Assembly (NCBI RefSeq): GCF_041248615.1
Contig: NZ_CP158426.1
Length of the DNA: 64,000 bases
Reading direction: 5' to 3' (one strand)
Source of the DNA: Escherichia coli
GTDB lineage: Bacteria > Pseudomonadota > Gammaproteobacteria > Enterobacterales > Enterobacteriaceae
A model generated the notes under the pieces. That model ran no database searches and had not been told where the DNA came from. It saw nothing but the letters and a program-made list of their open reading frames with translations. Of this stretch, positions 729 to 56,053 are shown piece by piece. Made by a program: the position numbers and the translations under genes. The number at the start of each line of letters is the position of its first letter. Within the stretch, counting starts at the first letter, position 1.

Positions 729-2666
729 TCAGTAACGACGTCCCCATTCCGTGGCGCTCATCAATGTCGGTTTATCCCCCATGAAATAGCGGTAGTAAGC
801 GTCATAAGCCAGCACGTTCTTCACATAACCGCGCGTCTCGGAGAACGGAATACTCTCGACAAATGCCACTGCGTCGATACGCCCGGCGCTGTTGCCAAGC
901 CAGGTTCGCACCCGCCCTGGTCCGGCGTTATAAGCTGCTGAGGAGAAAATACGGTTATTACCAAACTGCTGATAAACATATTGCAGGTAACTGGTGCCAA
1001 TGTTGATGTTCGTTTCCGGATCCAGCAATTGTCCTGGGCTGCTATAACCAGGAATAGAGAACATCTTCACCGTATGGGTCGCCGTGCCCGGCATAATCTG
1101 CATCAGGCCGCTGGCCCCTACCGGCGATTTCACTTTCGGATTCCAGGCACTCTCCTGACGGGCAATCGCCATCGCATAGCTTTGCGGGATCTCCTTCCCA
1201 CTGGTGTAACGTTTGAAAAGATCGTTGTAGGCCAGCGGGAATCGTTCTTCCAGATGATCCCACAGCTTCCCGGCGATCGTTGCCTGAACGCTAAGATCCC
1301 ACCATTGGTTATTGAAAGCATACCGAGCCAGTTGCGCCTGCTCTGTTTTTGACTTGCTCTTCACCAGATTGGCCCACTCGCTACGCGCGGTGTTATCGAG
1401 ATTCCAGTACATCAACTCGCGCACGCGCGCCATCTCCGGCCCCTGAGTCAGGGCGCTGTCAACATTCTGCGGCGCTTTATCAATCTTCAGCTCATACTCT
1501 TCTCCGATGCGTTGTGCTGCAACCATCGGGTAGAAACCACGCTGTTGCATGAGTTGATGCAAAATCTCTTTCGCTTCAGCTTCACGTCCGCGTTCCAGCA
1601 GTAAATCCGCCTGCCAGTAACGCCATTCATCTTTCTCTTTCGCCTCCATCGGCAAACGCGCCAGCCAGGTATTCAGGCCGCGACGATCGCCGGTGCCAAG
1701 CGCCATTCGCACACGGCGTTCAATAAGCGAAGTAGATTGCGAACGCATAATGGCGTCATCACGCCATTTCGCCTGTTCGTCGGTGACATCGTTGCCCATC
1801 AAACGCCAGGCGACGATATCGCGCAGCTCCTGAATCTGATCTTCATTAAGCTGCTGCGCCTGGGCAAGCGACGGAATCATCAGCCGTGCATTTTCAGCAT
1901 CCTGCCGCGCCACACTGGCAAACGCCACCGCCGCCATTTGACGGGTAAAATCGGTCGCTCCGGTTGTACGCGCGAAGGTCAGTACCGTATTAGGATTGTT
2001 CGCCAGTGAAATAATTGCCGAAGCGATAGTCTGGTAATCGGCAGGCATCTGCCCTGCCAGCACTGTTACCAGGCCAGTGTTACCCGCTTTCATCGCCAGA
2101 CGGATACGCTCTAAATACGCCAGCGGATCTTGTTTACCTGACGCACGCCAGACGCTAAATAACTTGTCACAGGCGTTAGGCTGGCTCTTGCCGGTTAGCC
2201 ACAGCTCTTTCGCCCCTTGCCAGGCTTCTTCACTCTGCCCGGTGTTCCATTTTGCATAGTAGTAATTACATTGCGCTTCGGTAGTTCCGGGCTTTTCCGG
2301 GCTAAAGGCTAACAAGCCACGCCAGTCTTCACGCCGCGCCAGTTCATTGACGAAACGAGATTGCAGCGTGCGAGCGGGAGGAAGCGTGGGGTTAGCGCGA
2401 ACAAAGTTAGTGACCGTCACCGCCGGTTGATTCATCAGATCATCGGTGATCTGGCGGTATTCCAGGTAGGGATAAAGCGGATAATCTTTCAGTCCAGGCA
2501 TCATTTGTTCGACCACATCCATTTGTCGATTATCCCAGGCCTGCTTGATTTGGGCGTAGCGGCTACGCTGCTCATCCAGTGAGTCGGCTCGCGCCACGCT
2601 GCTGACCGTCAGCAGACAGACACCGGCAGCCAACAGCCGCCAGGTAACGTGTTTGGCTTTTTCCAC
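729..2666 (-). CDS. slt: Soluble lytic murein transglycosylase Slt70 (GTG start inferred; six-frame ORF extends to 2696)
   Basis: 645 aa from VEKAKHVTWRLLAAGVCLL signal peptide to C-terminal SLT domain; matches Slt as recalled. Confidence 0.93.
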   Translation of the reverse strand: MEKAKHVTWRLLAAGVCLLTVSSVARADSLDEQRSRYAQIKQAWDNRQMDVVEQMMPGLKDYPLYPYLEYRQITDDLMNQPAVTVTNFVRANPTLPPARTLQSRFVNELARREDWRGLLAFSPEKPGTTEAQCNYYYAKWNTGQSEEAWQGAKELWLTGKSQPNACDKLFSVWRASGKQDPLAYLERIRLAMKAGNTGLVTVLAGQMPADYQTIASAIISLANNPNTVLTFARTTGATDFTRQMAAVAFASVARQDAENARLMIPSLAQAQQLNEDQIQELRDIVAWRLMGNDVTDEQAKWRDDAIMRSQSTSLIERRVRMALGTGDRRGLNTWLARLPMEAKEKDEWRYWQADLLLERGREAEAKEILHQLMQQRGFYPMVAAQRIGEEYELKIDKAPQNVDSALTQGPEMARVRELMYWNLDNTARSEWANLVKSKSKTEQAQLARYAFNNQWWDLSVQATIAGKLWDHLEERFPLAYNDLFKRYTSGKEIPQSYAMAIARQESAWNPKVKSPVGASGLMQIMPGTATHTVKMFSIPGYSSPGQLLDPETNINIGTSYLQYVYQQFGNNRIFSSAAYNAGPGRVRTWLGNSAGRIDAVAFVESIPFSETRGYVKNVLAYDAYYRYFMGDKPTLMSATEWGRRY

Positions 2667-2876
2667 AAGCGCATCCTCTAAGTGTAAATACATCAATGCA
2701 GCGTCATGCCGCGTAATAGATTTATGCTAACCAGTCATTGACGTTTACGCCACGTTACGGACACTTTTTTACTTTTATCGGGAGGGTGATCGACCGGCTG
2801 GGATTAGATAAGGAAACAGGCTACACTTCGCCTTTGAAAACTCATCATCACGATAAACATAGAGGCGAAGTCCAAC

Positions 2877-4544
2877 GTGGCTCAATTCGTTTATACCATG
2901 CATCGTGTCGGCAAAGTTGTTCCGCCGAAACGTCATATTTTGAAAAACATCTCTCTGAGTTTCTTCCCTGGGGCAAAAATTGGTGTCCTGGGTCTGAACG
3001 GCGCGGGTAAGTCCACCCTGCTGCGCATTATGGCGGGCATTGATAAAGACATCGAAGGCGAAGCGCGTCCGCAACCGGATATCAAGATTGGTTATCTGCC
3101 GCAGGAACCGCAGCTGAACCCGGAACACACCGTGCGTGAGTCCATTGAAGAAGCGGTTTCTGAAGTGGTTAACGCCCTGAAACGCCTGGATGAAGTGTAT
3201 GCGCTGTACGCCGATCCGGATGCCGATTTTGACAAGCTGGCCGCTGAACAAGGCCGTCTGGAAGAGATCATTCAGGCTCACGACGGTCACAACCTGAACG
3301 TTCAGCTGGAGCGTGCAGCGGATGCGCTGCGTCTGCCGGACTGGGACGCGAAAATCGCTAACCTCTCCGGTGGTGAGCGTCGTCGCGTAGCGTTGTGCCG
3401 CCTGCTGCTGGAAAAACCAGACATGCTGCTGCTCGACGAACCGACCAACCACCTGGATGCCGAATCCGTGGCCTGGCTGGAACGCTTCCTGCACGACTTC
3501 GAGGGCACCGTGGTGGCGATTACCCACGACCGTTACTTCCTCGATAACGTTGCAGGCTGGATCCTCGAACTGGACCGCGGTGAAGGTATTCCGTGGGAAG
3601 GCAACTACTCCTCCTGGCTGGAGCAGAAAGATCAGCGCCTGGCGCAGGAAGCTTCACAAGAAGCTGCGCGTCGTAAGTCGATTGAGAAAGAGCTGGAGTG
3701 GGTACGTCAAGGTACTAAAGGCCGTCAGTCGAAAGGTAAAGCACGTCTGGCGCGTTTTGAAGAGCTGAACAGCACCGAATATCAGAAACGTAACGAAACC
3801 AACGAACTGTTTATTCCACCGGGACCGCGTCTTGGCGACAAAGTGCTGGAAGTCAGCAATCTGCGTAAATCCTATGGCGATCGTCTGCTGATTGATGACC
3901 TGAGCTTCTCGATCCCGAAAGGAGCGATCGTCGGGATCATCGGTCCGAACGGTGCGGGTAAATCGACGCTGTTCCGTATGATCTCTGGTCAGGAACAGCC
4001 GGACAGCGGCACCATCACTTTGGGTGAAACGGTGAAACTGGCATCGGTTGATCAGTTCCGTGACTCAATGGATAACAGCAAAACCGTTTGGGAAGAAGTT
4101 TCCGGCGGGCTGGATATCATGAAGATCGGCAACACCGAGATGCCAAGCCGTGCCTACGTTGGCCGCTTTAACTTTAAAGGGGTTGATCAGGGTAAACGCG
4201 TTGGCGAACTCTCCGGCGGTGAGCGCGGTCGTCTGCATCTGGCGAAGCTGCTGCAGGTTGGCGGCAACATGCTGCTGCTCGACGAACCAACCAACGACCT
4301 GGATATCGAAACCCTGCGCGCGCTGGAAAACGCCCTGCTGGAGTTCCCGGGCTGTGCGATGGTTATCTCGCACGACCGTTGGTTCCTCGACCGTATCGCC
4401 ACGCACATCCTGGACTACCAGGATGAAGGTAAAGTTGAGTTCTTCGAAGGTAACTTTACCGAGTACGAAGAGTACAAAAAACGCACGCTGGGCGCAGACG
4501 CGCTGGAGCCGAAGCGTATCAAGTACAAGCGTATTGCGAAGTAA
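2877..4544 (+). CDS. ettA: Energy-dependent translational throttle protein EttA (ABC-F ATPase)
   Basis: 555 aa, two ABC cassettes (GLNGAGKST and GPNGAGKST Walker A, LSGGE signatures). Confidence 0.95.
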   Translation: MAQFVYTMHRVGKVVPPKRHILKNISLSFFPGAKIGVLGLNGAGKSTLLRIMAGIDKDIEGEARPQPDIKIGYLPQEPQLNPEHTVRESIEEAVSEVVNALKRLDEVYALYADPDADFDKLAAEQGRLEEIIQAHDGHNLNVQLERAADALRLPDWDAKIANLSGGERRRVALCRLLLEKPDMLLLDEPTNHLDAESVAWLERFLHDFEGTVVAITHDRYFLDNVAGWILELDRGEGIPWEGNYSSWLEQKDQRLAQEASQEAARRKSIEKELEWVRQGTKGRQSKGKARLARFEELNSTEYQKRNETNELFIPPGPRLGDKVLEVSNLRKSYGDRLLIDDLSFSIPKGAIVGIIGPNGAGKSTLFRMISGQEQPDSGTITLGETVKLASVDQFRDSMDNSKTVWEEVSGGLDIMKIGNTEMPSRAYVGRFNFKGVDQGKRVGELSGGERGRLHLAKLLQVGGNMLLLDEPTNDLDIETLRALENALLEFPGCAMVISHDRWFLDRIATHILDYQDEGKVEFFEGNFTEYEEYKKRTLGADALEPKRIKYKRIAK

Positions 4545-4668
4545 TGCGTAAAATGCCGGGTGCGGCGCGCCAGCATCGCATCCGGTATTAGTTAAATGAT
4601 TAGTCCCCGGAAAAAGGCAGAATTTTCTTTAAGCGTATTAGCTCAGATGCGGACTGACACCTCAAATC

Positions 4669-4693
4669 AAGCGGGAACTCATGGTTCCCGCTT
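4669..4693. terminator. Bidirectional hairpin terminator between convergent ettA and LysR-type gene
   Basis: Perfect 10 bp stem AAGCGGGAAC/GTTCCCGCTT with 5 nt loop, followed by T-rich run. Confidence 0.55.
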
Positions 4694-4699
4694 AACGTT

Positions 4700-5587
4700 T
4701 TATTCACCGCGCAGGATCTGGCGGAAATGGGAAACCAGCGGACGTTGGTTGGCTTTATGCCAGGCTGCCCATAATTGCGTTGAATAATTCATCCACGGCA
4801 ATTCACGTAATACCACCCCTTCCGGCGCATTATGACGCAGACTATGTTGAATTAAGGCCAGACCTAATCCCGCAGCGACCAAACCTAATGCCGTGAGGGG
4901 TTCACCCGCTTCCAGGCGAATATCAGGATTAAACCCGGCGTTAACACAGGCGGCGACAAAATGATCGCGAGAATGCGCATCGTCGTTATGAATCACCGCA
5001 ATCCACTGCTCATCACCAAGTTGTGACGCGACAAGGTTTTCCTCCTGCGCCAGAGGATGATTTTGCGGTAAGGCCAACAACATTCGATCATCCAGAACCT
5101 GAATATATTCCAGATCCTGCTCGCTGTCGGTGGGCGGCGTATCGACCAGAGAAAAATCGAGACTGCGCTGGCGCAGGCCTTCAATCTGGGTCGCCGGTGG
5201 TTGGCTGTAAAGTGCGATATGCACATTCGGACGCGATACACGTAACGTACGTAGCGCCGTAGAAAGCACACCGGAATGCATGGCGTTTTCGATATAGCCA
5301 ATACACAAGCCACCATCTTCCCCCCGTCCCAGGCGTTTGCCTAACGACTCCAGGCGGTTGGCGTGTGTCAGCAACGAACGTGTTTCGGCAAGGAATGTCT
5401 GTCCATCAGCGGTCAGGCGAATGCGCTGCTGATTACGCTCAAACAGCGTCAGCCCCAGCCGTTCTTCCAGTTGTGCAATCTGGCGGCTCAGCGGTGATTG
5501 CGAGATATGTAATCGCTCGGCTGCGCGTCCCACGTGCTCTTCTTCTGCGACCACCACGAAGTACTTCAGTTGGCGTAAATCAATCAT
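4700..5587 (-). CDS. LysR-family transcriptional regulator (start at MIDLRQLKYF; ORF track extends to 5680)
   Basis: N-terminal LysR HTH (QLKYFVVVAEEEHVGRAAERLHISQSPLSRQI) plus substrate-binding domain; divergent from reductase operon. Confidence 0.8.
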   Translation of the reverse strand: MIDLRQLKYFVVVAEEEHVGRAAERLHISQSPLSRQIAQLEERLGLTLFERNQQRIRLTADGQTFLAETRSLLTHANRLESLGKRLGRGEDGGLCIGYIENAMHSGVLSTALRTLRVSRPNVHIALYSQPPATQIEGLRQRSLDFSLVDTPPTDSEQDLEYIQVLDDRMLLALPQNHPLAQEENLVASQLGDEQWIAVIHNDDAHSRDHFVAACVNAGFNPDIRLEAGEPLTALGLVAAGLGLALIQHSLRHNAPEGVVLRELPWMNYSTQLWAAWHKANQRPLVSHFRQILRGE

Positions 5588-5720
5588 GTTAGACCTCAAA
5601 GGACTTAAGTCAGACGAATTATGTCCTATCAAGTCACAACCTCGCAAGGTATTGTGATCCACGTCACAGGGCGATAGCAAAAAAACGCCCTAACCCAAAC
5701 CGAATAATTGAGGACATCTT

Positions 5721-6731
5721 ATGAGCATCAAAAATTTACTTCCCGGCAAAATTGGCTTAGGTGGCGCACCACTCGGCAACATGTTCCGTGCCATTCCGGA
5801 AGACGAGGCCCACGCCACCGTGAGCGAAGCCTGGAACCTGGGCGTGCGTTACTTTGATACCGCGCCGCTGTACGGCTCTGGCCTTTCTGAAATCCGCATG
5901 GGTGAAGCGCTGTCTCAGTATCCACGCGATGAATACGTTCTGAGCAGCAAAGTCGGTCGCATCATGCTGGACGAAATGGAAGATCCGGCAAAACGTGATT
6001 TCGGTGAAAAAGGTGGCCTGTTCGAACACGGCCTGAAAAACAAAATTCTGAATGACTACTCTGCTGACGCCACGCTGCGCTCGATTGAAGACAGCCTGAA
6101 ACGCCTGAAAACAGACCGTCTGGATATTGTCTGGATCCATGACCCGGCGCAGGACTTCTACGGTGACAGCTGGCTGGAACAGTTCAACATTGCCCGTACC
6201 GGTGCGTTTCGTGCGCTGACGCGTTTGCGTGACGAAGGTGTGATTAAAGCCTGGGGACTGGGTGTGAATCGCGTCGAACCTTGCGAACTGACGCTGGCGC
6301 TGGACGAACCGAAGCCGGATGCGTTCCTGCTGGCGGGGCGTTATTCCCTGCTGGATCACGAACGTGCGCTGCAACGCCTGATGCCAGAAGCACTGGAACA
6401 GAACGTGGATATCGTTGTGGGCGGTCCGTACAGCTCTGGCGTACTGGCAGGCGGCGAGCACTTTGAATATCAGATAGCTTCTGCGGCCATCCAGCAGAAA
6501 GTGGCGCAAATTAACACCATTGCCACACGTTTCAATGTGAACGTTAAAGCAGCTGCGCTGCAGTTCGCGCTGGCAAACCCGGCCGTTGCGGCGGTTATTC
6601 CTGGCTCCAGCCGTCCTGGCCGTATGGCAGAAGATCTGGCTGCACTGAATGCGCCTGTTCCGGCTGAATTCTGGGCAGAAATGCGCCGTCAAAATCTGGT
6701 TGCGGAAAACGCTCCGCTGCCGACCCGTTAA
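5721..6731 (+). CDS. Aldo-keto reductase family oxidoreductase
   Basis: 336 aa, AKR hallmarks (GLGGAPLGNMF, YFDTAPLYG, IPGSSRP); good RBS. Confidence 0.85.
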   Translation: MSIKNLLPGKIGLGGAPLGNMFRAIPEDEAHATVSEAWNLGVRYFDTAPLYGSGLSEIRMGEALSQYPRDEYVLSSKVGRIMLDEMEDPAKRDFGEKGGLFEHGLKNKILNDYSADATLRSIEDSLKRLKTDRLDIVWIHDPAQDFYGDSWLEQFNIARTGAFRALTRLRDEGVIKAWGLGVNRVEPCELTLALDEPKPDAFLLAGRYSLLDHERALQRLMPEALEQNVDIVVGGPYSSGVLAGGEHFEYQIASAAIQQKVAQINTIATRFNVNVKAAALQFALANPAVAAVIPGSSRPGRMAEDLAALNAPVPAEFWAEMRRQNLVAENAPLPTR

Positions 6732-52950: not shown

Positions 52951-53301
52951 TTAAAGCCCCATCGCAACAGCCAGACAGACAGCTGCAACAATCAGTGCAC
53001 GGCGGATTAACGCAGCAGAAAAAACCAGGTGAAGGCCGGTCTGTACGGGCCAGCGCCCCTCAGCCATGAGGCGCTCGTCATGCTTCAGGTACTGCCCCGG
53101 ACGGGCCTTCGGGAAGAGTGAGCGGTCCAGCCAGTAGCCGAGCACGGCGGCGAGGGAGATGAGAGAGAGCTTGTACACCACCACCGGCAACTGCTGGGGC
53201 GAGACCAGCGCGATGATGAGGAGTAGCAGCACGGCCGCAACAAGCCATCCACGCAGGCGGGTTTTTTGTACGTCAGCGATAAGGGAAGTGAATGGTTTCA
53301 T
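52951..53301 (-). CDS. Holin-like membrane protein
   Basis: 116 aa with 2-3 TM helices, first gene of the minus-strand late arm. Confidence 0.55.
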   Translation of the reverse strand: MKPFTSLIADVQKTRLRGWLVAAVLLLLIIALVSPQQLPVVVYKLSLISLAAVLGYWLDRSLFPKARPGQYLKHDERLMAEGRWPVQTGLHLVFSAALIRRALIVAAVCLAVAMGL

Positions 53302-53432
53302 GAAAATGTCTCCTTGTTGTGTGGAGACAGCATGGCAAAAGCGTGGCGCGGAGGATTTTAAAGCGCGTTAAGAGAGAGGCGTGTTCGGGGTATGCAGAAT
53401 ACACGCTGGATCACTCACAAAGGAGATACAGA

Positions 53433-53981
53433 ATGACAGTCACACCGAAGCCGACCATCACCGTCAGAGTGTCCGGGCCTGTGGGCAGCGGTAAAAGTTA
53501 CGTTCTGACGCGTATAAAAGAGATGGTGAAAAAGGAATTTGGAAAAAGCGTCATTGTCGATGCCGCAGTTGTGGACGACGAGCGTATCTGTCGGACGAAT
53601 GAGCTGCTTCAGGAGCAACTCATGAAGGTGTTACGCAAACTCACCGGTCAGACAACAAAATGTTTTTCAGCCCCGGAGTACGGGATACAGGAACACATCC
53701 CGGTGAACATGCCCCCCGTTAACCAGCCTCCCCGGTTCTTCGACGAATACATTCTGACACCGGAAAATAAAGCTGAGCATGAAGAGATCAAAGCGGCGTT
53801 GTTCCGGGAAATCAGGAAGATTGCTGAAATGCAGCTGGAGGGCGGGCTGGACAGAGTGATGGCGAGAGGAGAATGGGAATCGCTGTTTGAAAGAGTTTCC
53901 CCGGAATTGCTTCCCCTCGCACTGGCTATCGGGATTATGCAGACAGCGGATAAACCTCACTTACGTTCATTAAACACGTAA
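53433..53981 (+). CDS. Small P-loop NTPase of unknown function (cargo)
   Basis: 182 aa; Walker A GPVGSGKS after a beta-strand (TITVRVSGPVGSGKSYV); strong RBS AAAGGAG. Confidence 0.6.
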   Translation: MTVTPKPTITVRVSGPVGSGKSYVLTRIKEMVKKEFGKSVIVDAAVVDDERICRTNELLQEQLMKVLRKLTGQTTKCFSAPEYGIQEHIPVNMPPVNQPPRFFDEYILTPENKAEHEEIKAALFREIRKIAEMQLEGGLDRVMARGEWESLFERVSPELLPLALAIGIMQTADKPHLRSLNT

Positions 53982-54361
53982 CGCATAATCCGGGATACGC
54001 ATTCAGCGATGACTGCATTTTCACCGGTTTTTACTGCATCCAGAAGTGACTCTTTAAATGGTACGGGCCGGGGCTGCAGAAAGGTCGGCATGGCATTGAG
54101 CAGACAGAGCGTTTTTTCCGTGAGGACGACATCAGCCGCTCCCACAGCCAGCAACTGAGAGTAACGAATATAGCTGTTATCCCGAAGCCATATCAGCGTA
54201 TCAATAAAATACCGGCACTTTTTCTGATCGTGATCAACCTGGTCCGGGATATCGAAAAAACCAGAATAAATCAAAACCTGAGGAGCCGGATGCGTGTTCA
54301 GTAATCGGCAGAATATTTTGCCGGTGAGTACATAAAAATCATCATTTAAGGAGTGCATCAT
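53957..54361 (-). CDS. Hypothetical protein (cargo)
   Basis: 134 aa ORF, no recognisable motif; 3' end overlaps the P-loop gene by 25 bp; start codon overlaps that of the divergent 71-aa ORF. Confidence 0.4.
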   Translation of the reverse strand: MMHSLNDDFYVLTGKIFCRLLNTHPAPQVLIYSGFFDIPDQVDHDQKKCRYFIDTLIWLRDNSYIRYSQLLAVGAADVVLTEKTLCLLNAMPTFLQPRPVPFKESLLDAVKTGENAVIAECVSRIMRYVFNERK

Positions 54362-54575
54362 GAATCCCCGATTAACGTTAACAGAACATCAGCGCCGTGC
54401 CGAAGCAGTGAACAATGTTCTGGAAGATATTATCCGGTTACATCGCGGAGAACTGAGTGTCTGTCGTGCCACTGTTCATTTTCAGGAAATACAAAAGCAG
54501 TTTGATACTTCTGTTTTTGCAGAAGGGATCACTTATGCCCTGGACCAGATAAGGTCAGAAAATCGCCCCGGATAA
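54360..54575 (+). CDS. Hypothetical small protein (cargo)
   Basis: 71 aa; strong RBS TAAGGAG 7 nt upstream. Confidence 0.5.
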   Translation: MNPRLTLTEHQRRAEAVNNVLEDIIRLHRGELSVCRATVHFQEIQKQFDTSVFAEGITYALDQIRSENRPG

Positions 54576-54767
54576 TCCCTAAACCACATTAACAGAAATC
54601 ACTTCATCCCTGCCGCATCATGAAAGAACGACCAGCCCGGTGCTTCGGACCCACCAGGCTGGCCATCGTCCCACAGGAATGCGCTGTGAGCCGACCGGGG
54701 TTCAGTCAGTCTCGCGAGACCAGACTAGCCTGCCATATTTTTAATAATTGTAAAAGGCTTACAGATT

Positions 54768-55532
54768 ATGAAAATGCAGACATTACCCATCGTTCCATGG
54801 ATTGGTGGCAAACGTCGCCTGGCAAAACACATCCTGCCGCTGTTTCCGGCGCATGAATGTTACGTGGAGCCGTTCTGCGGCGCAGCAGCGCTCTATTTTC
54901 TTAAGACACCTGGTAAGCTCGAAGTCATTAACGATATCAATGGTGAACTGGTAAATCTGTATCGGGTGGTAAAACATCATCTGGAAGAATTTGTCCGCCA
55001 GTTCAAATGGGCGCTGGTCAGCCGGCAGATCTACAAATGGCTGCAGATCACCCCGACAGAAACACTGACGGATATCCAGCGTGCAGCACGGTTCTACTAC
55101 CTCCAGAAGCAGGCGTTTGGCGGCAAGGTGGCAGAGCACAGCTTCGGCACCTCCACCACATCCCCGCCACGCTTCAACCTGCTGCGTATCGAGGAAGAAC
55201 TGTCAGCGGCACACCTGCGGCTTTCCAGAACGGTGATAGAACACATGGACTGGCAACAGTGCATTGAGCGCTATGACCGTCCGCACACGCTGTTCTACTG
55301 TGACCCGCCGTATCTGGGTACAGAAGGCTATGGTGTGGATTTTCCTGAAGGGAACTACTCGCGGCTGGCAGAGCTGGCCCGGTGCATCAGAGGAAAGATG
55401 ATAATTTCGGTGAACGACATCCCGCAGATGCGCGAGGTGTTCACTGGACTGAACATACAGACAGTGAACATCAACTACAGTCTGGCAGGCAAATCAACTC
55501 CACGCCGTGAGCTGGTGATCTGCAATTTCTAA
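54768..55532 (+). CDS. Orphan Dam-like N6-adenine DNA methyltransferase
   Basis: 254 aa; motif I VEPFCGAAALYF and catalytic DPPY (FYCDPPYLG); N-terminus WIGGKRRLAKHILPLFP resembles Dam; no restriction partner nearby. Confidence 0.85.
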   Translation: MKMQTLPIVPWIGGKRRLAKHILPLFPAHECYVEPFCGAAALYFLKTPGKLEVINDINGELVNLYRVVKHHLEEFVRQFKWALVSRQIYKWLQITPTETLTDIQRAARFYYLQKQAFGGKVAEHSFGTSTTSPPRFNLLRIEEELSAAHLRLSRTVIEHMDWQQCIERYDRPHTLFYCDPPYLGTEGYGVDFPEGNYSRLAELARCIRGKMIISVNDIPQMREVFTGLNIQTVNINYSLAGKSTPRRELVICNF

Positions 55533-55650
55533 AAGCCATAACCGGAAAGTACAGTGCTTTCCGGTAAGCCCGCCGATTTCTGCCATGCTACTGACGGCGT
55601 TTTCTGAAAGCATCCAGATCAACCACCTGTCCTTTCTGTCCAGGTCAGAA

Positions 55651-56043
55651 TCAGCCTGCGAGTTTGCCTGGTTTTGGCTGAGTGAAGACTTTGCCGACGT
55701 CAAGAAATGAACGTTGTTGTTCTCTTGTCATTTTATCAAACGCAGCCACCAATTCTTGCTGATCATGAGAAAGTGGTTTAGTAGGTGGCACACTATCTTC
55801 CGTAAGAAACCTTGAACCGACACCTGTTAATAGCCAATTAATGTTTATACCCAACTGTGTACAAAGTTTTGTTAACCCCACAATATTCGGCTCACGAGCT
55901 CCATTCAAATAGCTTTGCGCAGTACGGTATGGCAGCTCACACGCTTCCGCAAACTCTTTGATAGATTTGATTTTCTTTTCTGTCAAAACTTCCTTCAAAC
56001 GTTCAGCAATACACATTTGCATCTCTTTTATTGCTTTATACAC
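55651..56043 (-). CDS. Phage repressor, XRE-type HTH (start codon uncertain)
   Basis: 130 aa, HTH around EFAEACELPYRTAQSYLNGAREPNIVGLTKLCTQLGININWL; divergent from early operon. Confidence 0.7.
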   Translation of the reverse strand: MYKAIKEMQMCIAERLKEVLTEKKIKSIKEFAEACELPYRTAQSYLNGAREPNIVGLTKLCTQLGININWLLTGVGSRFLTEDSVPPTKPLSHDQQELVAAFDKMTREQQRSFLDVGKVFTQPKPGKLAG

Positions 56044-56053
56044 ATTTGTGTAT
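56038..56053. promoter_or_regulatory. Candidate operator palindrome ATACACATTTGTGTAT in immunity region
   Basis: Near-perfect 16 bp palindrome overlapping the repressor 5' end. Confidence 0.35.

What the first reader, a model, noticed from the sequence alone, without database searches (positions are those of the whole stretch)
53302..55650. Cargo cassette between late and early arms of the prophage: P-loop NTPase, two unknown proteins, orphan Dam-like methyltransferase
Four genes unrelated to transposition, morphogenesis or lysis sit between the lysis operon (minus strand) and the repressor. The 182-aa protein has a Walker A motif (GPVGSGKS). It converges on, and overlaps by 25 bp, a 134-aa ORF with no recognisable domain, whose start codon overlaps the start of a divergent 71-aa ORF (CATG at 54359-54362). 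A 190 bp structured spacer (hairpins, palindrome GTCTCGCGAGAC) precedes the Dam-like methyltransferase. Hotspots at junctions of phage transcription units often carry defence, anti-restriction or superinfection-exclusion cargo. I recognise no described system with this composition.
Basis: partly seen in the sequence, partly recalled or inferred. Interest (0 to 1): 0.7.

Follow-up and report, generated by a model that had tools for sequence, protein, structure and literature searches.

The report
Mosaic accessory-gene hotspot in Mu-like prophage
The four genes are real and lie in a swap-prone cargo slot of a common E. coli Mu-like (BcepMu-type) prophage, but they are three independently exchanged units rather than one system, and the most interesting unit is an uncharacterised two-gene pair, also found in P2-like phages, whose start codons overlap head-to-head.

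Summary
The window carries a BcepMu-like transposable prophage, the same type as Phi2 of E. coli ST131 strain EC958. The interval 53302-55650 is the variable region between its lysis/late arm and its repressor. The same cassette occurs in 555 of 5426 complete E. coli genomes.

It is not one system. Comparison with relatives shows at least three units that assort independently.

- **Gene A** is a very mosaic gene (168-370 aa in relatives). Its only recognisable feature is an N-terminal Walker A motif. The 182-aa copy here is an in-frame deletion variant that lacks the family's conserved second strand.
- **B-C** is a winged-helix protein plus a 63-73-aa partner, joined at a shared CATG. The junction is kept in E. 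coli, Serratia and Salmonella prophages and in 43 of 43 P2-like loci, where the pair sits in the gpA-gpQ hotspot. Both genes are under purifying selection. Each gene's ribosome-binding site lies inside the other gene.
- **Dam plus a conserved leader.** The methylase is 98% identical to M.EcoMIV, which is reported to be poorly transcribed in lysogens. The leader contains a conserved leftward intrinsic terminator.

No known defence family matches A, B or C. The function of A and B-C remains unproven. Interest is moderate.

The parts
53302..53432 (.). Divergent control region between the holin (late operon, minus strand) and gene A. It contains a 7-bp inverted repeat (53307-53313 / 53323-53329) that would pair with the holin Shine-Dalgarno sequence in the holin mRNA. 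It also contains a promoter-like motif, TTAACGCGCTTTAAAAT (53355-53371, minus strand).
   Evidence: Sequence. The motif is conserved in PhiKM, KE50 and MSB1_9D. The motif search found 2 matches in the window against 0.09 expected.
53433..53981 (+). Gene A, 182 aa. Walker A motif GPVGSGKS. It is an in-frame deletion variant (-36 aa and -29 aa) of the usual 242/247-aa protein and belongs to a highly mosaic family.
   Evidence: phrog_3787, 5.9e-89. Alignment to the PhiKM 242-aa protein. Family survey. Pfam matches cover only the Walker A stretch. AF2 model pLDDT 54 with no fold match.
53957..54361 (-). Gene B, 134 aa. A winged-helix protein (phrog_2266). Its 3' end overlaps A by 25 bp and its start codon overlaps C's.
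54359..54362 (.). CATG junction. The ATG of C (54360-54362, +) and the ATG of B (54361-54359, -) share two bases. Each gene's Shine-Dalgarno sequence lies in the first 5-6 codons of the other gene.
   Evidence: Sequence. The junction is conserved in Serratia and Salmonella prophages and in 43 of 43 P2-like loci. Synonymous diversity is depressed at the junction.
54360..54575 (+). Gene C, 71 aa. A small, non-hydrophobic protein of presumably helical structure (phrog_4490) that partners B.
   Evidence: phrog_4490, 4.7e-51. Serratia orthologue at 34.5% identity, E = 4e-11. Intact in all E. coli variants examined. The positional counterparts in P2-like phages are phrog_2454, with dN/dS 0.15.
54621..54667 (-). 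Intrinsic terminator for leftward (minus-strand) transcription. A 16-bp stem is followed on the minus strand by GTTCTTTCA. It forms part of the conserved leader that travels with Dam.
   Evidence: Minus-strand fold -78.6 kcal/mol, z = -4.08, against plus-strand z = -1.14. Terminator scan. In 9 lineages 97% of cells are paired and 3 pairs show compensatory changes, while slid controls pair at 20-50%.
54709..54720 (.). Perfect 12-bp palindrome GTCTCGCGAGAC within a longer imperfect dyad upstream of Dam. It is a candidate operator or RNA hairpin of unknown role.
   Evidence: Sequence. It is identical in KP12, KE50 and MSB1_9D but not conserved in Serratia.
54768..55532 (+). Orphan Dam-family (D12-class) N6-adenine DNA methyltransferase, 254 aa. 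It is the homologue of M.EcoMIV of EC958 prophage Phi2.
   Evidence: TIGR00571 at 116.8 bits against a cut-off of 114.85. PADLOC MTase_II, 1.3e-112. DpnM and EcoDam are the closest solved structures. 98% identity to the EC958 gene.
55541..55565 (.). Hairpin between the convergent Dam and repressor genes. On the minus strand it scores as a terminator for the repressor transcript.
   Evidence: Terminator scan and inverted repeat I9.

Best explanation
The interval is the accessory-gene ('moron') hotspot of an enterobacterial BcepMu-like transposable prophage. It lies between the late/lysis operon and the repressor. It is a mosaic of at least three independently exchanged units, not a four-gene system.

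(1) Gene A is a lineage-specific, rapidly shuffled gene. Its invariant part is an ~80-aa N-terminal unit: a strand, a Walker A loop, a helix and a second conserved strand. The copy here has lost that second strand and a second block through in-frame deletions, so it probably binds phosphate or nucleotide at most and is unlikely to be a working NTPase.

(2) B-C is a portable two-gene module shared with P2-like phages. B is a winged-helix, probably DNA-binding, protein and C is a small, non-hydrophobic partner. The two start codons share CATG and each ribosome-binding site is encoded inside the other gene. Their promoters must therefore lie inside or beyond each other's coding sequence, and their mRNA 5' ends must be complementary. 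I infer a mutually exclusive, antisense or transcription-interference coupled switch.

In this model B (same strand as the repressor) is the lysogen-state product. The plus-strand genes A, C and Dam form the lytic-state unit, which runs antisense across B.

(3) Dam with its ~150-nt leader is a lytic-phase orphan adenine methylase. The leader's conserved leftward terminator insulates B and the lysis operon from read-through from the immunity region.

Shown: gene reality, modularity, the folds, the junction geometry, the terminator, and low Dam mRNA in lysogens (from the literature).

Inferred: expression states, DNA binding by B, and any phenotype.
For: Element identity:
- BcepMu-type gene order and PhiKM/Bcepmuvirus taxonomy.
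- EC958 carries the same A-B-C-Dam arrangement, and its Phi2 tail-fibre inversion coordinates fall inside this prophage.

Prevalence:
- 555 of 5426 complete E. coli genomes carry the cassette.

Modularity:
- Dam without A-B-C: KE50, MSB1_9D, KP12.
- A-B-C without Dam: 2014C-3075, Salmonella L015.
- A without B-C: Salmonella L082-L086.
- B-C without A: P2-like phages.
- B inactivated by a stop codon or a 318-bp deletion in some prophages.

Gene A:
- 231 clusters, 168-370 aa among the best 120. The N-terminus is invariant and the C-termini are alternative.
- The deletions map onto the conserved 'W.KPR.GT...L.E' block.

B-C:
- Winged-helix fold.
- CATG junction in 43 of 43 P2-like loci and in Serratia and Salmonella.
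- dN/dS of 0.08 and 0.15.
- Low synonymous diversity at the junction and in the 5' part of B.

Terminator:
-.

Dam:
- Family assignment.
- No plus-strand terminator between C and Dam.
- M.EcoMIV is transcribed significantly less than dam in mid-log LB, and no methylation motif was assigned to it (PMC4659465).
Against: - No transcript data were available for A, B or C. No convincing sigma-70 promoter was found for B or C, so the switch model rests on geometry alone.
- The small partners of B in the BcepMu-like and P2-like lineages show no detectable homology (hhalign probability 0.1%). The 'conserved pair' may therefore be a conserved arrangement with replaced partners.
- Distant B homologues often lack a divergent small partner.
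- The A model is of low confidence (pLDDT 54), so loss of NTPase function is argued from sequence only.
- The 182-aa form of A has persisted and diversified (P0026 and P0027), which suggests it still does something.
- Dam's sequence specificity is unknown. The GATC-reading hairpin of EcoDam/DpnM is not conserved in the alignment.
Confidence: 0.68

Rival explanations
1. One reading: the four genes form one defence, anti-restriction or superinfection-exclusion cassette that is expressed from the prophage and acts together.
For: - The position is a variable hotspot next to the repressor.
- Other occupants of the hotspot include a weak KwaA-like membrane protein and 2TM-effector-like or lipoprotein genes.
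- A methyltransferase next to an ATPase-like gene superficially resembles R-M-like or BREX-like gene logic.
Against: - The units assort independently.
- PADLOC gives nothing for B and C. For A it gives only Walker-A-level hits: SngB 3.8e-4 and HerA 2.2e-3.
- No nuclease or other effector domain is present.
- A lacks its conserved second strand here.
- The Dam homologue is weakly transcribed in lysogens.
Confidence: 0.07
2. B-C alone is a new prophage-borne anti-phage (exclusion or abortive-infection) module. B senses or binds invading nucleic acid or a phage protein, and C is its antagonist or effector. A and Dam are unrelated neighbours.
For: [quoted passage not shown]
- The E. coli P2-type proteins WP_000042038 and WP_000551925 appear in that paper's hotspot table as 'hypothetical', next to a retron reverse transcriptase.
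- The module has moved between two unrelated temperate phage families.
- It is under purifying selection.
- It is dispensable for the prophage, since pseudogenes occur.
- A conserved larger protein with fast-changing or replaced small partners is typical of conflict systems.
Against: - No enzymatic or membrane effector domain is present. There is only a ~70-aa winged-helix core plus helices.
- No match in PADLOC, NCBIfam or Pfam.
- I found no report of it being tested. The accessions occur only in one supplementary file of PMC9122126, in rows that read as a per-locus arrangement listing. I did not open the file of cloned systems itself.
- The hotspot also holds non-defence genes.
Confidence: 0.22
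3. B-C is a regulatory switch for the phage's own accessory or late functions. B would be a repressor and C a Cro/Apl/Cox-like antagonist, in an extreme version of face-to-face-promoter switches. It would have no role against other phages.
For: - The winged-helix fold is closest to MarR-type regulators.
- The overlapping 5' ends are obligatory.
- Synonymous diversity is depressed over the first ~200 nt of B, where C's promoter or operator would lie.
- One B homologue heads an operon behind a cI-like gene in a P4-like element.
Against: - The same module works in phages with unrelated regulatory circuits (Mu-like and P2-like), so it is unlikely to be wired into either one.
- It is dispensable.
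- No operator repeats were found.
Confidence: 0.3
4. The genes are conserved core genes of Mu-like phages with an essential role in development.
For: A-B-C-Dam is stably linked in about 490 E. coli genomes, and A is common in Salmonella relatives.
Against: - They are absent from BcepMu, which has unrelated gp18-20.
- They are absent or replaced in KE50, MSB1_9D, KP12 and Salmonella prophages.
- B pseudogenes exist.
Confidence: 0.03

Closest known systems
P2 gpA-gpQ (old/tin) accessory hotspot of P2-like phages (Rousset et al. 2022, PMC9122126)
   Same: It is a short, high-turnover locus between conserved phage genes that carries unrelated small cassettes. The B-C type pair is itself an occupant of that P2 hotspot.
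   Different: Here the hotspot is in a transposable BcepMu-like phage, between the holin and the repressor, and is not cos-proximal. None of the occupants matches a validated defence system.
M.EcoMIV, the orphan D12-class methyltransferase of prophage Phi2 in E. coli ST131 EC958 (Forde et al. 2015, PMC4659465)
   Same: 98% identical protein in the same position of the same prophage type. Pfam PF02086 / Dam family.
   Different: Nothing substantive. The recognition sequence is still undetermined. It is only distantly related to E. coli Dam (67 bits against the equivalog cut-off of 441).
Face-to-face promoter switches of coliphages 186 (pR/pL) and P2 (Pe/Pc), and IS10 RNA-IN/RNA-OUT antisense control (from my own knowledge)
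   Same: Two oppositely directed transcription units have overlapping 5' ends, so each interferes with the other. In IS10 the overlap covers the ribosome-binding site and the start codon.
   Different: In B-C there is no intergenic region at all. Both start codons and both Shine-Dalgarno sequences lie in the overlap, which makes the arrangement symmetrical. No promoter has been mapped, so the resemblance is inferred from geometry.
MarR-type and other winged-helix DNA-binding proteins
   Different: There is no sequence-profile membership in any Pfam HTH family. The extra C-terminal helical hairpin, the dimerisation mode and the DNA target are all unknown.
BcepMu gp18-gp20 region (Summer et al. 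2004; record NC_005882)
   Same: Same genomic slot, between the repressor gp17 and the holin gp21.
   Different: The proteins are unrelated: no BLASTP match better than E = 0.3.

Membership tests
Dam family / D12-class N6-adenine DNA methyltransferase (TIGR00571, PF02086) | Whole-protein profile score above the curated cut-off | tested here: met
   TIGR00571 scores 116.8 bits against a cut-off of 114.85, so it only just passes. PADLOC MTase_II PDLC03253 matches at 1.3e-112 over the full length.
Dam family / D12-class N6-adenine DNA methyltransferase (TIGR00571, PF02086) | Catalytic DPPY motif and N-terminal SAM-binding motif | tested here: met
   YCDPPYLG lies at residues 177-184. EPFCGAAA aligns with EPFVGGGA of DpnM.
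Dam family / D12-class N6-adenine DNA methyltransferase (TIGR00571, PF02086) | GATC specificity | not testable with these tools
   The EcoDam/DpnM segment FNGLYR...NVP(F/Y)GRY aligns with QAFGGKV...TSPPRF and is not conserved. No motif was assigned to M.EcoMIV experimentally.
Orphan (solitary) methyltransferase | No cognate restriction endonuclease gene adjacent | tested here: met
   The neighbours are C and the repressor. No nuclease domain was found in A, B or C.
P-loop NTPase (gene A) | Walker A motif GxxxxGK[ST] after a beta-strand | tested here: met
   GPVGSGKS at residues 15-22. K21 is invariant and G15, P16, G18, S19, G20 and S22 are nearly invariant across the family.
P-loop NTPase (gene A) | Walker B strand (hhhhD/E) | tested here: not met
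   The family's only candidate (GT[VI][IF][RK]L.E, residues ~66-73 of the 247-aa form) is deleted in the window's 182-aa copy.
P-loop NTPase (gene A) | Full-domain match to an NTPase profile or fold | tested here: not met
   Pfam hits cover only ~30-65 residues around Walker A, with a best E of 5.7e-4. The AF2 model has pLDDT 54, shows two strands only, and has no Foldseek match with E < 0.6.
Known anti-phage defence systems (PADLOC-DB v2) | Profile match of the component proteins | tested here: not met
   B and C have 0 families. A has only SngB at 3.8e-4 and HerA at 2.2e-3, both over the Walker A region. Only the methyltransferase matches.
Winged-helix fold (gene B) | H1-strand-H2/H3-wing topology superposable on known winged-helix domains | tested here: met
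   [not shown]
DUF2513 (the label on the Serratia relative of B) | Pfam profile match | tested here: not met
   No Pfam family matches B or any of its 30 relatives at E <= 0.001, apart from one spurious hit.
Type II toxin-antitoxin pair (B-C) | Co-transcribed two-gene operon with a recognisable toxin domain | tested here: not met
   The genes are divergent with overlapping start codons. No toxin family matches.
Conserved Mu-like core gene set | Presence and synteny in related transposable phages | tested here: not met
   Absent from BcepMu. Variably present in enterobacterial relatives.
Phage accessory ('moron') hotspot cargo | Variable gene content between conserved flanking genes, with modules shared with unrelated phages | tested here: met
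   At least six different arrangements occur between the holin and the repressor. B-C is shared with P2-like phages.

The most novel reading that the evidence does not exclude
B-C is a new kind of self-contained, horizontally mobile two-gene phage module. Its head-to-head CATG start overlap, with each ribosome-binding site written inside the other gene, would act as a symmetrical antisense toggle. The module would confer a lysogen phenotype such as exclusion of, or defence against, other phages. The winged-helix protein would be the sensor or regulator, and the fast-replaced small protein would be its antagonist or specificity partner.
Probability: 0.2. Interest if true: 0.7.

Novelty: new member of a known kind. 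Interest (0 to 1): 0.42.

Why it matters
This prophage is present in about 10% of complete E. coli genomes, including the pandemic ST131 lineage, so its cargo is widespread.

Showing that the region is a three-unit mosaic stops it being mis-filed as a single novel defence system. It also points experiments at the one unit that is unusual, the B-C pair.

That pair has crossed between Mu-like and P2-like phages. It sits in a hotspot known to be rich in antiviral genes. It has a start-codon architecture that forces antisense coupling. If it has a phenotype, it would add both a new accessory function and a compact regulatory design.

The mosaic gene A, with hundreds of length variants behind one invariant Walker A unit, is a second lead for studying rapid protein shuffling in prophages.

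Tried and rejected
- **Tum of phage 186.** B has a similar size and position to the Tum antirepressor. Rejected because Tum is DinI-like and is transcribed in the other direction.
- **DUF2513 membership of B.** Not reproduced by Pfam.
- **Homology between the small partners.** The BcepMu-like and P2-like partners were compared by hhalign and no homology was found.
- **A shared 10-mer as a B promoter.** ATGTGGTTTA lies upstream of B in both the window and P2-like phages. It is not conserved in Serratia or Salmonella and is coding in P2-likes.
- **The 54578-54598 repeat as a second late promoter.** It is a degenerate copy of the holin-upstream motif, but its -10 element is destroyed. It may be only a recombination scar.
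- **Rfam scan of the region.** No match.
- **PDB sequence searches.** Nothing significant for B or either partner type.
- **Fold searches.** BFVD for B and PDB for A returned nothing usable.
- **Profile-based locus search.** The B alignment was too divergent for it.
- **Literature searches.** Searches for the protein accessions and for DUF2513 found no papers.
- **Promoter scan.** It gave no more hits than shuffled sequence, 3 against 3.0 expected, so no promoter is claimed.
Full report
**1. Observation.**
- The holin ends its reading frame at 53301, on the minus strand.
- Gene A runs 53433-53981 (+, 182 aa) and carries GPVGSGKS.
- Gene B runs 53957-54361 (-, 134 aa) and overlaps the 3' end of A by 25 bp.
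- Gene C runs 54360-54575 (+, 71 aa), and the two start codons share CATG at 54359-54362.
- A 192-bp spacer with the palindrome GTCTCGCGAGAC (54709-54720) precedes a 254-aa Dam-like gene (54768-55532).
- The repressor follows at 55651-56043 (-).

RefSeq annotates the same four genes in a 100% identical E. coli locus. All four proteins fall into PHROG families.

**2. What the element is.** The flanking genes are:
- on one side, holin, SLT endolysin, Mu Gp27-like small terminase, TerL, Mu-type portal and P2-type tail;
- on the other side, repressor, Ner-like protein, DDE transposase, ExeA-like protein, Gam, GemA and Mor.

These genes and their divergent two-arm order match Burkholderia phage BcepMu and the E. 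coli phage PhiKM, which is classed in Bcepmuvirus. E. coli ST131 strain EC958 carries the same A(242 aa)-B-C-Dam arrangement at 1,030,271-1,032,551. The published Phi2 tail-fibre inversion sites (1,005,540-1,007,607; PMC4134206) lie inside that prophage, which ends at Mor, 1,041,719. The window's prophage is therefore a Phi2-type element. The cassette is found in 555 of 5426 complete E. coli genomes, and 489 of them cover at least 80% of it.

**3. It is a variable slot, and the four genes are not one unit.**

BcepMu has unrelated genes (gp18-20) between its repressor and holin. Among enterobacterial relatives I found these arrangements:

| Arrangement (holin ... repressor) | Where found |
|---|---|
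| A-B-C \| Dam | this window, EC958, PhiKM |
| A-B-C \| 328-aa protein | E. coli 2014C-3075 |
| Dam \| 401-aa + nucleoid-associated protein | KE50 |
| Dam \| lipoprotein | MSB1_9D |
| other gene \| Dam \| lipoprotein | Klebsiella KP12 |
| 89-aa protein-B-C \| Dam | Serratia |
| A(258)-B-C \| DUF7424 | Salmonella |
| A(207) \| Dam \| ... | Salmonella |
| A(297) \| 280-aa protein | Salmonella |

B-C also occurs without A or Dam in P2-like phages. In some E. coli prophages B carries a stop codon or a 318-bp deletion while its neighbours stay intact. The region is thus a mosaic of at least three independently assorting units. A fourth slot lies between Dam and the repressor and is empty in this window.

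**4. Gene A.** The usual E. coli protein is 242-247 aa. The window's 182-aa form differs from it by two in-frame deletions (36 and 29 aa) and a 5-aa insertion.

A search with the Salmonella homologue returned 231 clusters, with lengths from 168 to 370 aa among the best 120. The alignment shows three parts:
- an almost invariant ~80-aa N-terminus: strand, GP.GSGKS, helix, then 'W.KPR.GT..(K/R)L.E';
- optional blocks after it;
- several alternative C-termini.

The first deletion in the window removes the whole 'W.KPR.GT...L.E' block, which is the only Walker B-like strand in the family.

Pfam matches only 30-65 residues around Walker A. The AF2 model is poor (pLDDT 54, two strands) and has no structural neighbours. 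'P-loop NTPase' is therefore a motif-level statement, not a family assignment, and this copy lacks part of even the minimal unit.

The 182-aa type has nevertheless persisted and diverged (P0026 and P0027), so it is not simply a dead gene.

**5. The B-C pair.**

*Family size and contexts.* The family is small and diverse: 37 representatives in 1.84 billion proteins. Its members sit as isolated inserts in Mu-like, P2-like and P4-like elements.

*The junction.* The striking feature is the junction with C.
- In E. coli, Serratia and Salmonella BcepMu-like prophages, B's start codon shares CATG with a divergent 63-73-aa ORF (86 aa in one locus).
- The same holds in 43 of 43 P2-like loci from IMG/VR.
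- In the P2-like set both genes are under purifying selection, with median dN/dS of 0.079 for B and 0.153 for the small gene.
- Nucleotide diversity, including at third codon positions, is lowest around the junction and over the first ~200 nt of B.

*Ribosome-binding sites.* Read directly from the sequence, C's Shine-Dalgarno AAGGAG is the complement of B codons 3-5. B's purine-rich GGGGA is the complement of C codons 2-4. The equivalent holds in P2-like phages.

*The partners differ.* The small partners belong to different families: phrog_4490 in E. coli and Serratia, phrog_2454 in P2-likes, and none in Salmonella. They show no profile-profile similarity. A conserved winged-helix protein is thus paired, in a conserved geometry, with a partner that diverges beyond recognition or gets replaced.

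*Position in P2-like phages.* There the pair lies in the cos-proximal gpA-gpQ hotspot. This is the locus of old and tin, which Rousset et al. showed to be rich in antiviral systems (PMC9122126). Their hotspot table lists the E. coli P2-type proteins WP_000042038 and WP_000551925 as 'hypothetical' beside a retron reverse transcriptase. Those accessions occur in only one of the paper's supplementary files, in rows that read as a per-locus arrangement listing. I therefore found no sign that the pair was cloned or tested, although I did not open the file of cloned systems itself.

**6. Spacer and Dam.**

*Leader.* From about 54621 onward the spacer travels with Dam in every Dam-bearing relative, including those that lack A-B-C.

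*Terminator.* The spacer folds no better than shuffled sequence on the plus strand (z = -1.1) but far better on the minus strand (-78.6 kcal/mol, z = -4.1). The reason is a 16-bp hairpin (54627-54667) followed on the minus strand by GTTCTTTCA, which is an intrinsic terminator for leftward transcription.
- Across nine lineages, 97% of cells pair and three pairs carry compensatory changes.
- Slid controls pair at only 20-50%.
- The hairpin is kept even in a Salmonella prophage with no Dam.

Its likely job is to stop read-through from the immunity side from entering B and, in prophages without A-B-C, the lysis operon.

*The methylase.* It passes the Dam-family model narrowly (116.8 bits against 114.85). 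It is far from the E. coli Dam equivalog (67 bits against 441). It has DPPY and the SAM motif. Its nearest solved relatives are DpnM and EcoDam, but the segment that reads GATC in those enzymes (my recollection of the EcoDam-DNA structure) is not conserved in the alignment.

It is 98% identical to the EC958 Phi2 methylase. Forde et al. reported that enzyme, M.EcoMIV, as transcribed significantly less than dam in mid-log LB cultures and as having no assignable motif (PMC4659465). No plus-strand terminator separates C from Dam.

**7. Most likely mechanism.** What is shown and what is inferred are kept apart below.

Shown:
- the gene content;
- independent assortment of the units;
- the winged-helix fold of B;
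- the junction geometry;
- the leftward terminator;
- the low level of Dam mRNA in lysogens (from the literature).

Inferred:
- There is no intergenic DNA between B and C, so C must be transcribed from within or beyond B.
- B lies downstream of a terminator. In Serratia that terminator abuts C's stop codon. B must therefore be transcribed from within C.
- The two mRNAs would then be complementary over both ribosome-binding sites and both start codons, which would make B and C expression mutually antagonistic.
- The plus strand can be read as one unit: A, then antisense across B, then C, then Dam. It would be opposed by B on the repressor's strand.
- I therefore propose that B is the lysogen-state product and possibly the repressor of the plus-strand unit. 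A, C and Dam would be made after induction, with Dam modifying replicating phage DNA.

The phenotype conferred by B-C is open: exclusion or defence, or purely internal regulation.

My estimates are:

| Claim | Estimate |
|---|---|
| Independent-module architecture | ~0.9 |
| Lytic-phase Dam | ~0.6 |
| Antisense-coupled B/C switch | ~0.45 |
| Defence role for B-C | ~0.2 |

**8. Comparison with known systems.**
- As a locus, this is an accessory hotspot of the kind described for P2/P4, in a different phage family and position.
- The methylase is already catalogued.
- B-C works most like face-to-face promoter switches (186 pR/pL, P2 Pe/Pc) or IS10 RNA-IN/RNA-OUT, but no promoter has been mapped, so this is resemblance and not membership.
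- B is a winged-helix fold member but belongs to no named family.
- Type II toxin-antitoxin, PADLOC defence families, the Mu core gene set and DUF2513 were each tested and not met (see the membership table).

**9. Verdict.** The region is ordinary in kind (prophage cargo hotspot) and one gene is already known. The B-C pair and the mosaic gene A are genuine uncharacterised leads.

- Interest: 0.42.
- Novelty: new member of a known kind.
- Novel reading: B-C as a new mobile toggle or defence module, probability about 0.2.

Noticed in passing
window 53307-53329 (minus-strand mRNA of the holin): A 7-bp inverted repeat, TGTCTCC / GGAGACA, separated by 9 nt lies just upstream of the holin ATG. In the holin mRNA the 3' arm contains the Shine-Dalgarno GGAG. 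This could form a hairpin that gates holin translation. The sequence is conserved in PhiKM, KE50 and MSB1_9D.
   Followed up: partly
window 29114-29342 and 30508-30736: A 229-nt inverted repeat (86% complementary) flanks a ~1.2-kb segment in the tail-fibre region. It matches the kind of invertible tail-fibre segment reported for EC958 Phi2, which has a 227-bp inverted repeat (PMC4134206).
   Followed up: partly
window 28900-28916 (minus strand): GAAACGCGCTTTAAAGT is the only other near-match (3 mismatches) in the window to the promoter-like motif upstream of the holin, against 0.09 matches expected. It may be a second late promoter in the tail-fibre region.
   Followed up: no
window 56009-56019 and 56038-56048: Two exact copies of ATACACATTTG, 29 bp apart, lie in the repressor/Ner-like divergent region (family D7). 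They are candidate repressor operators.
   Followed up: no
window 54578-54598: Just after C's stop codon there is a degenerate copy of the holin-upstream motif: TTAATGTGGTTTAGGGAT against TTAACGCGCTTTAAAATC on the minus strand. A-B-C is thus flanked by two related sequences, which may be a scar of its insertion into a holin-Dam intergenic region like that of KE50.
   Followed up: partly
L009 (E. coli KE50) 4405-6620; L015 4000-4677; L082 5110-5832; L008 4864-5850: The sub-slot between Dam and the repressor is empty in the window. In relatives it holds other cargo transcribed with the repressor. KE50 has a 401-aa protein with a weak KwaA match (8e-5) plus an NdpA-like nucleoid-associated protein. 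Other relatives have DUF7424 lipoproteins or a 328-aa phrog_10002 protein.
   Followed up: partly
[not shown]
   Followed up: partly
L080/L081 (metagenomic P4-like element) 1831-4605: A B-family protein (141 aa) follows a cI-like HTH gene and precedes a HipA_2-like kinase and two unknown genes, next to AlpA and Ogr/Delta genes. This suggests B-family proteins can head accessory operons in satellites.
   Followed up: no
window 55541-55565: A 12-bp-arm hairpin lies between the convergent Dam and repressor genes. It is followed by a T-rich tail on the minus strand only, so it is a terminator for the repressor transcript rather than for Dam.
   Followed up: no
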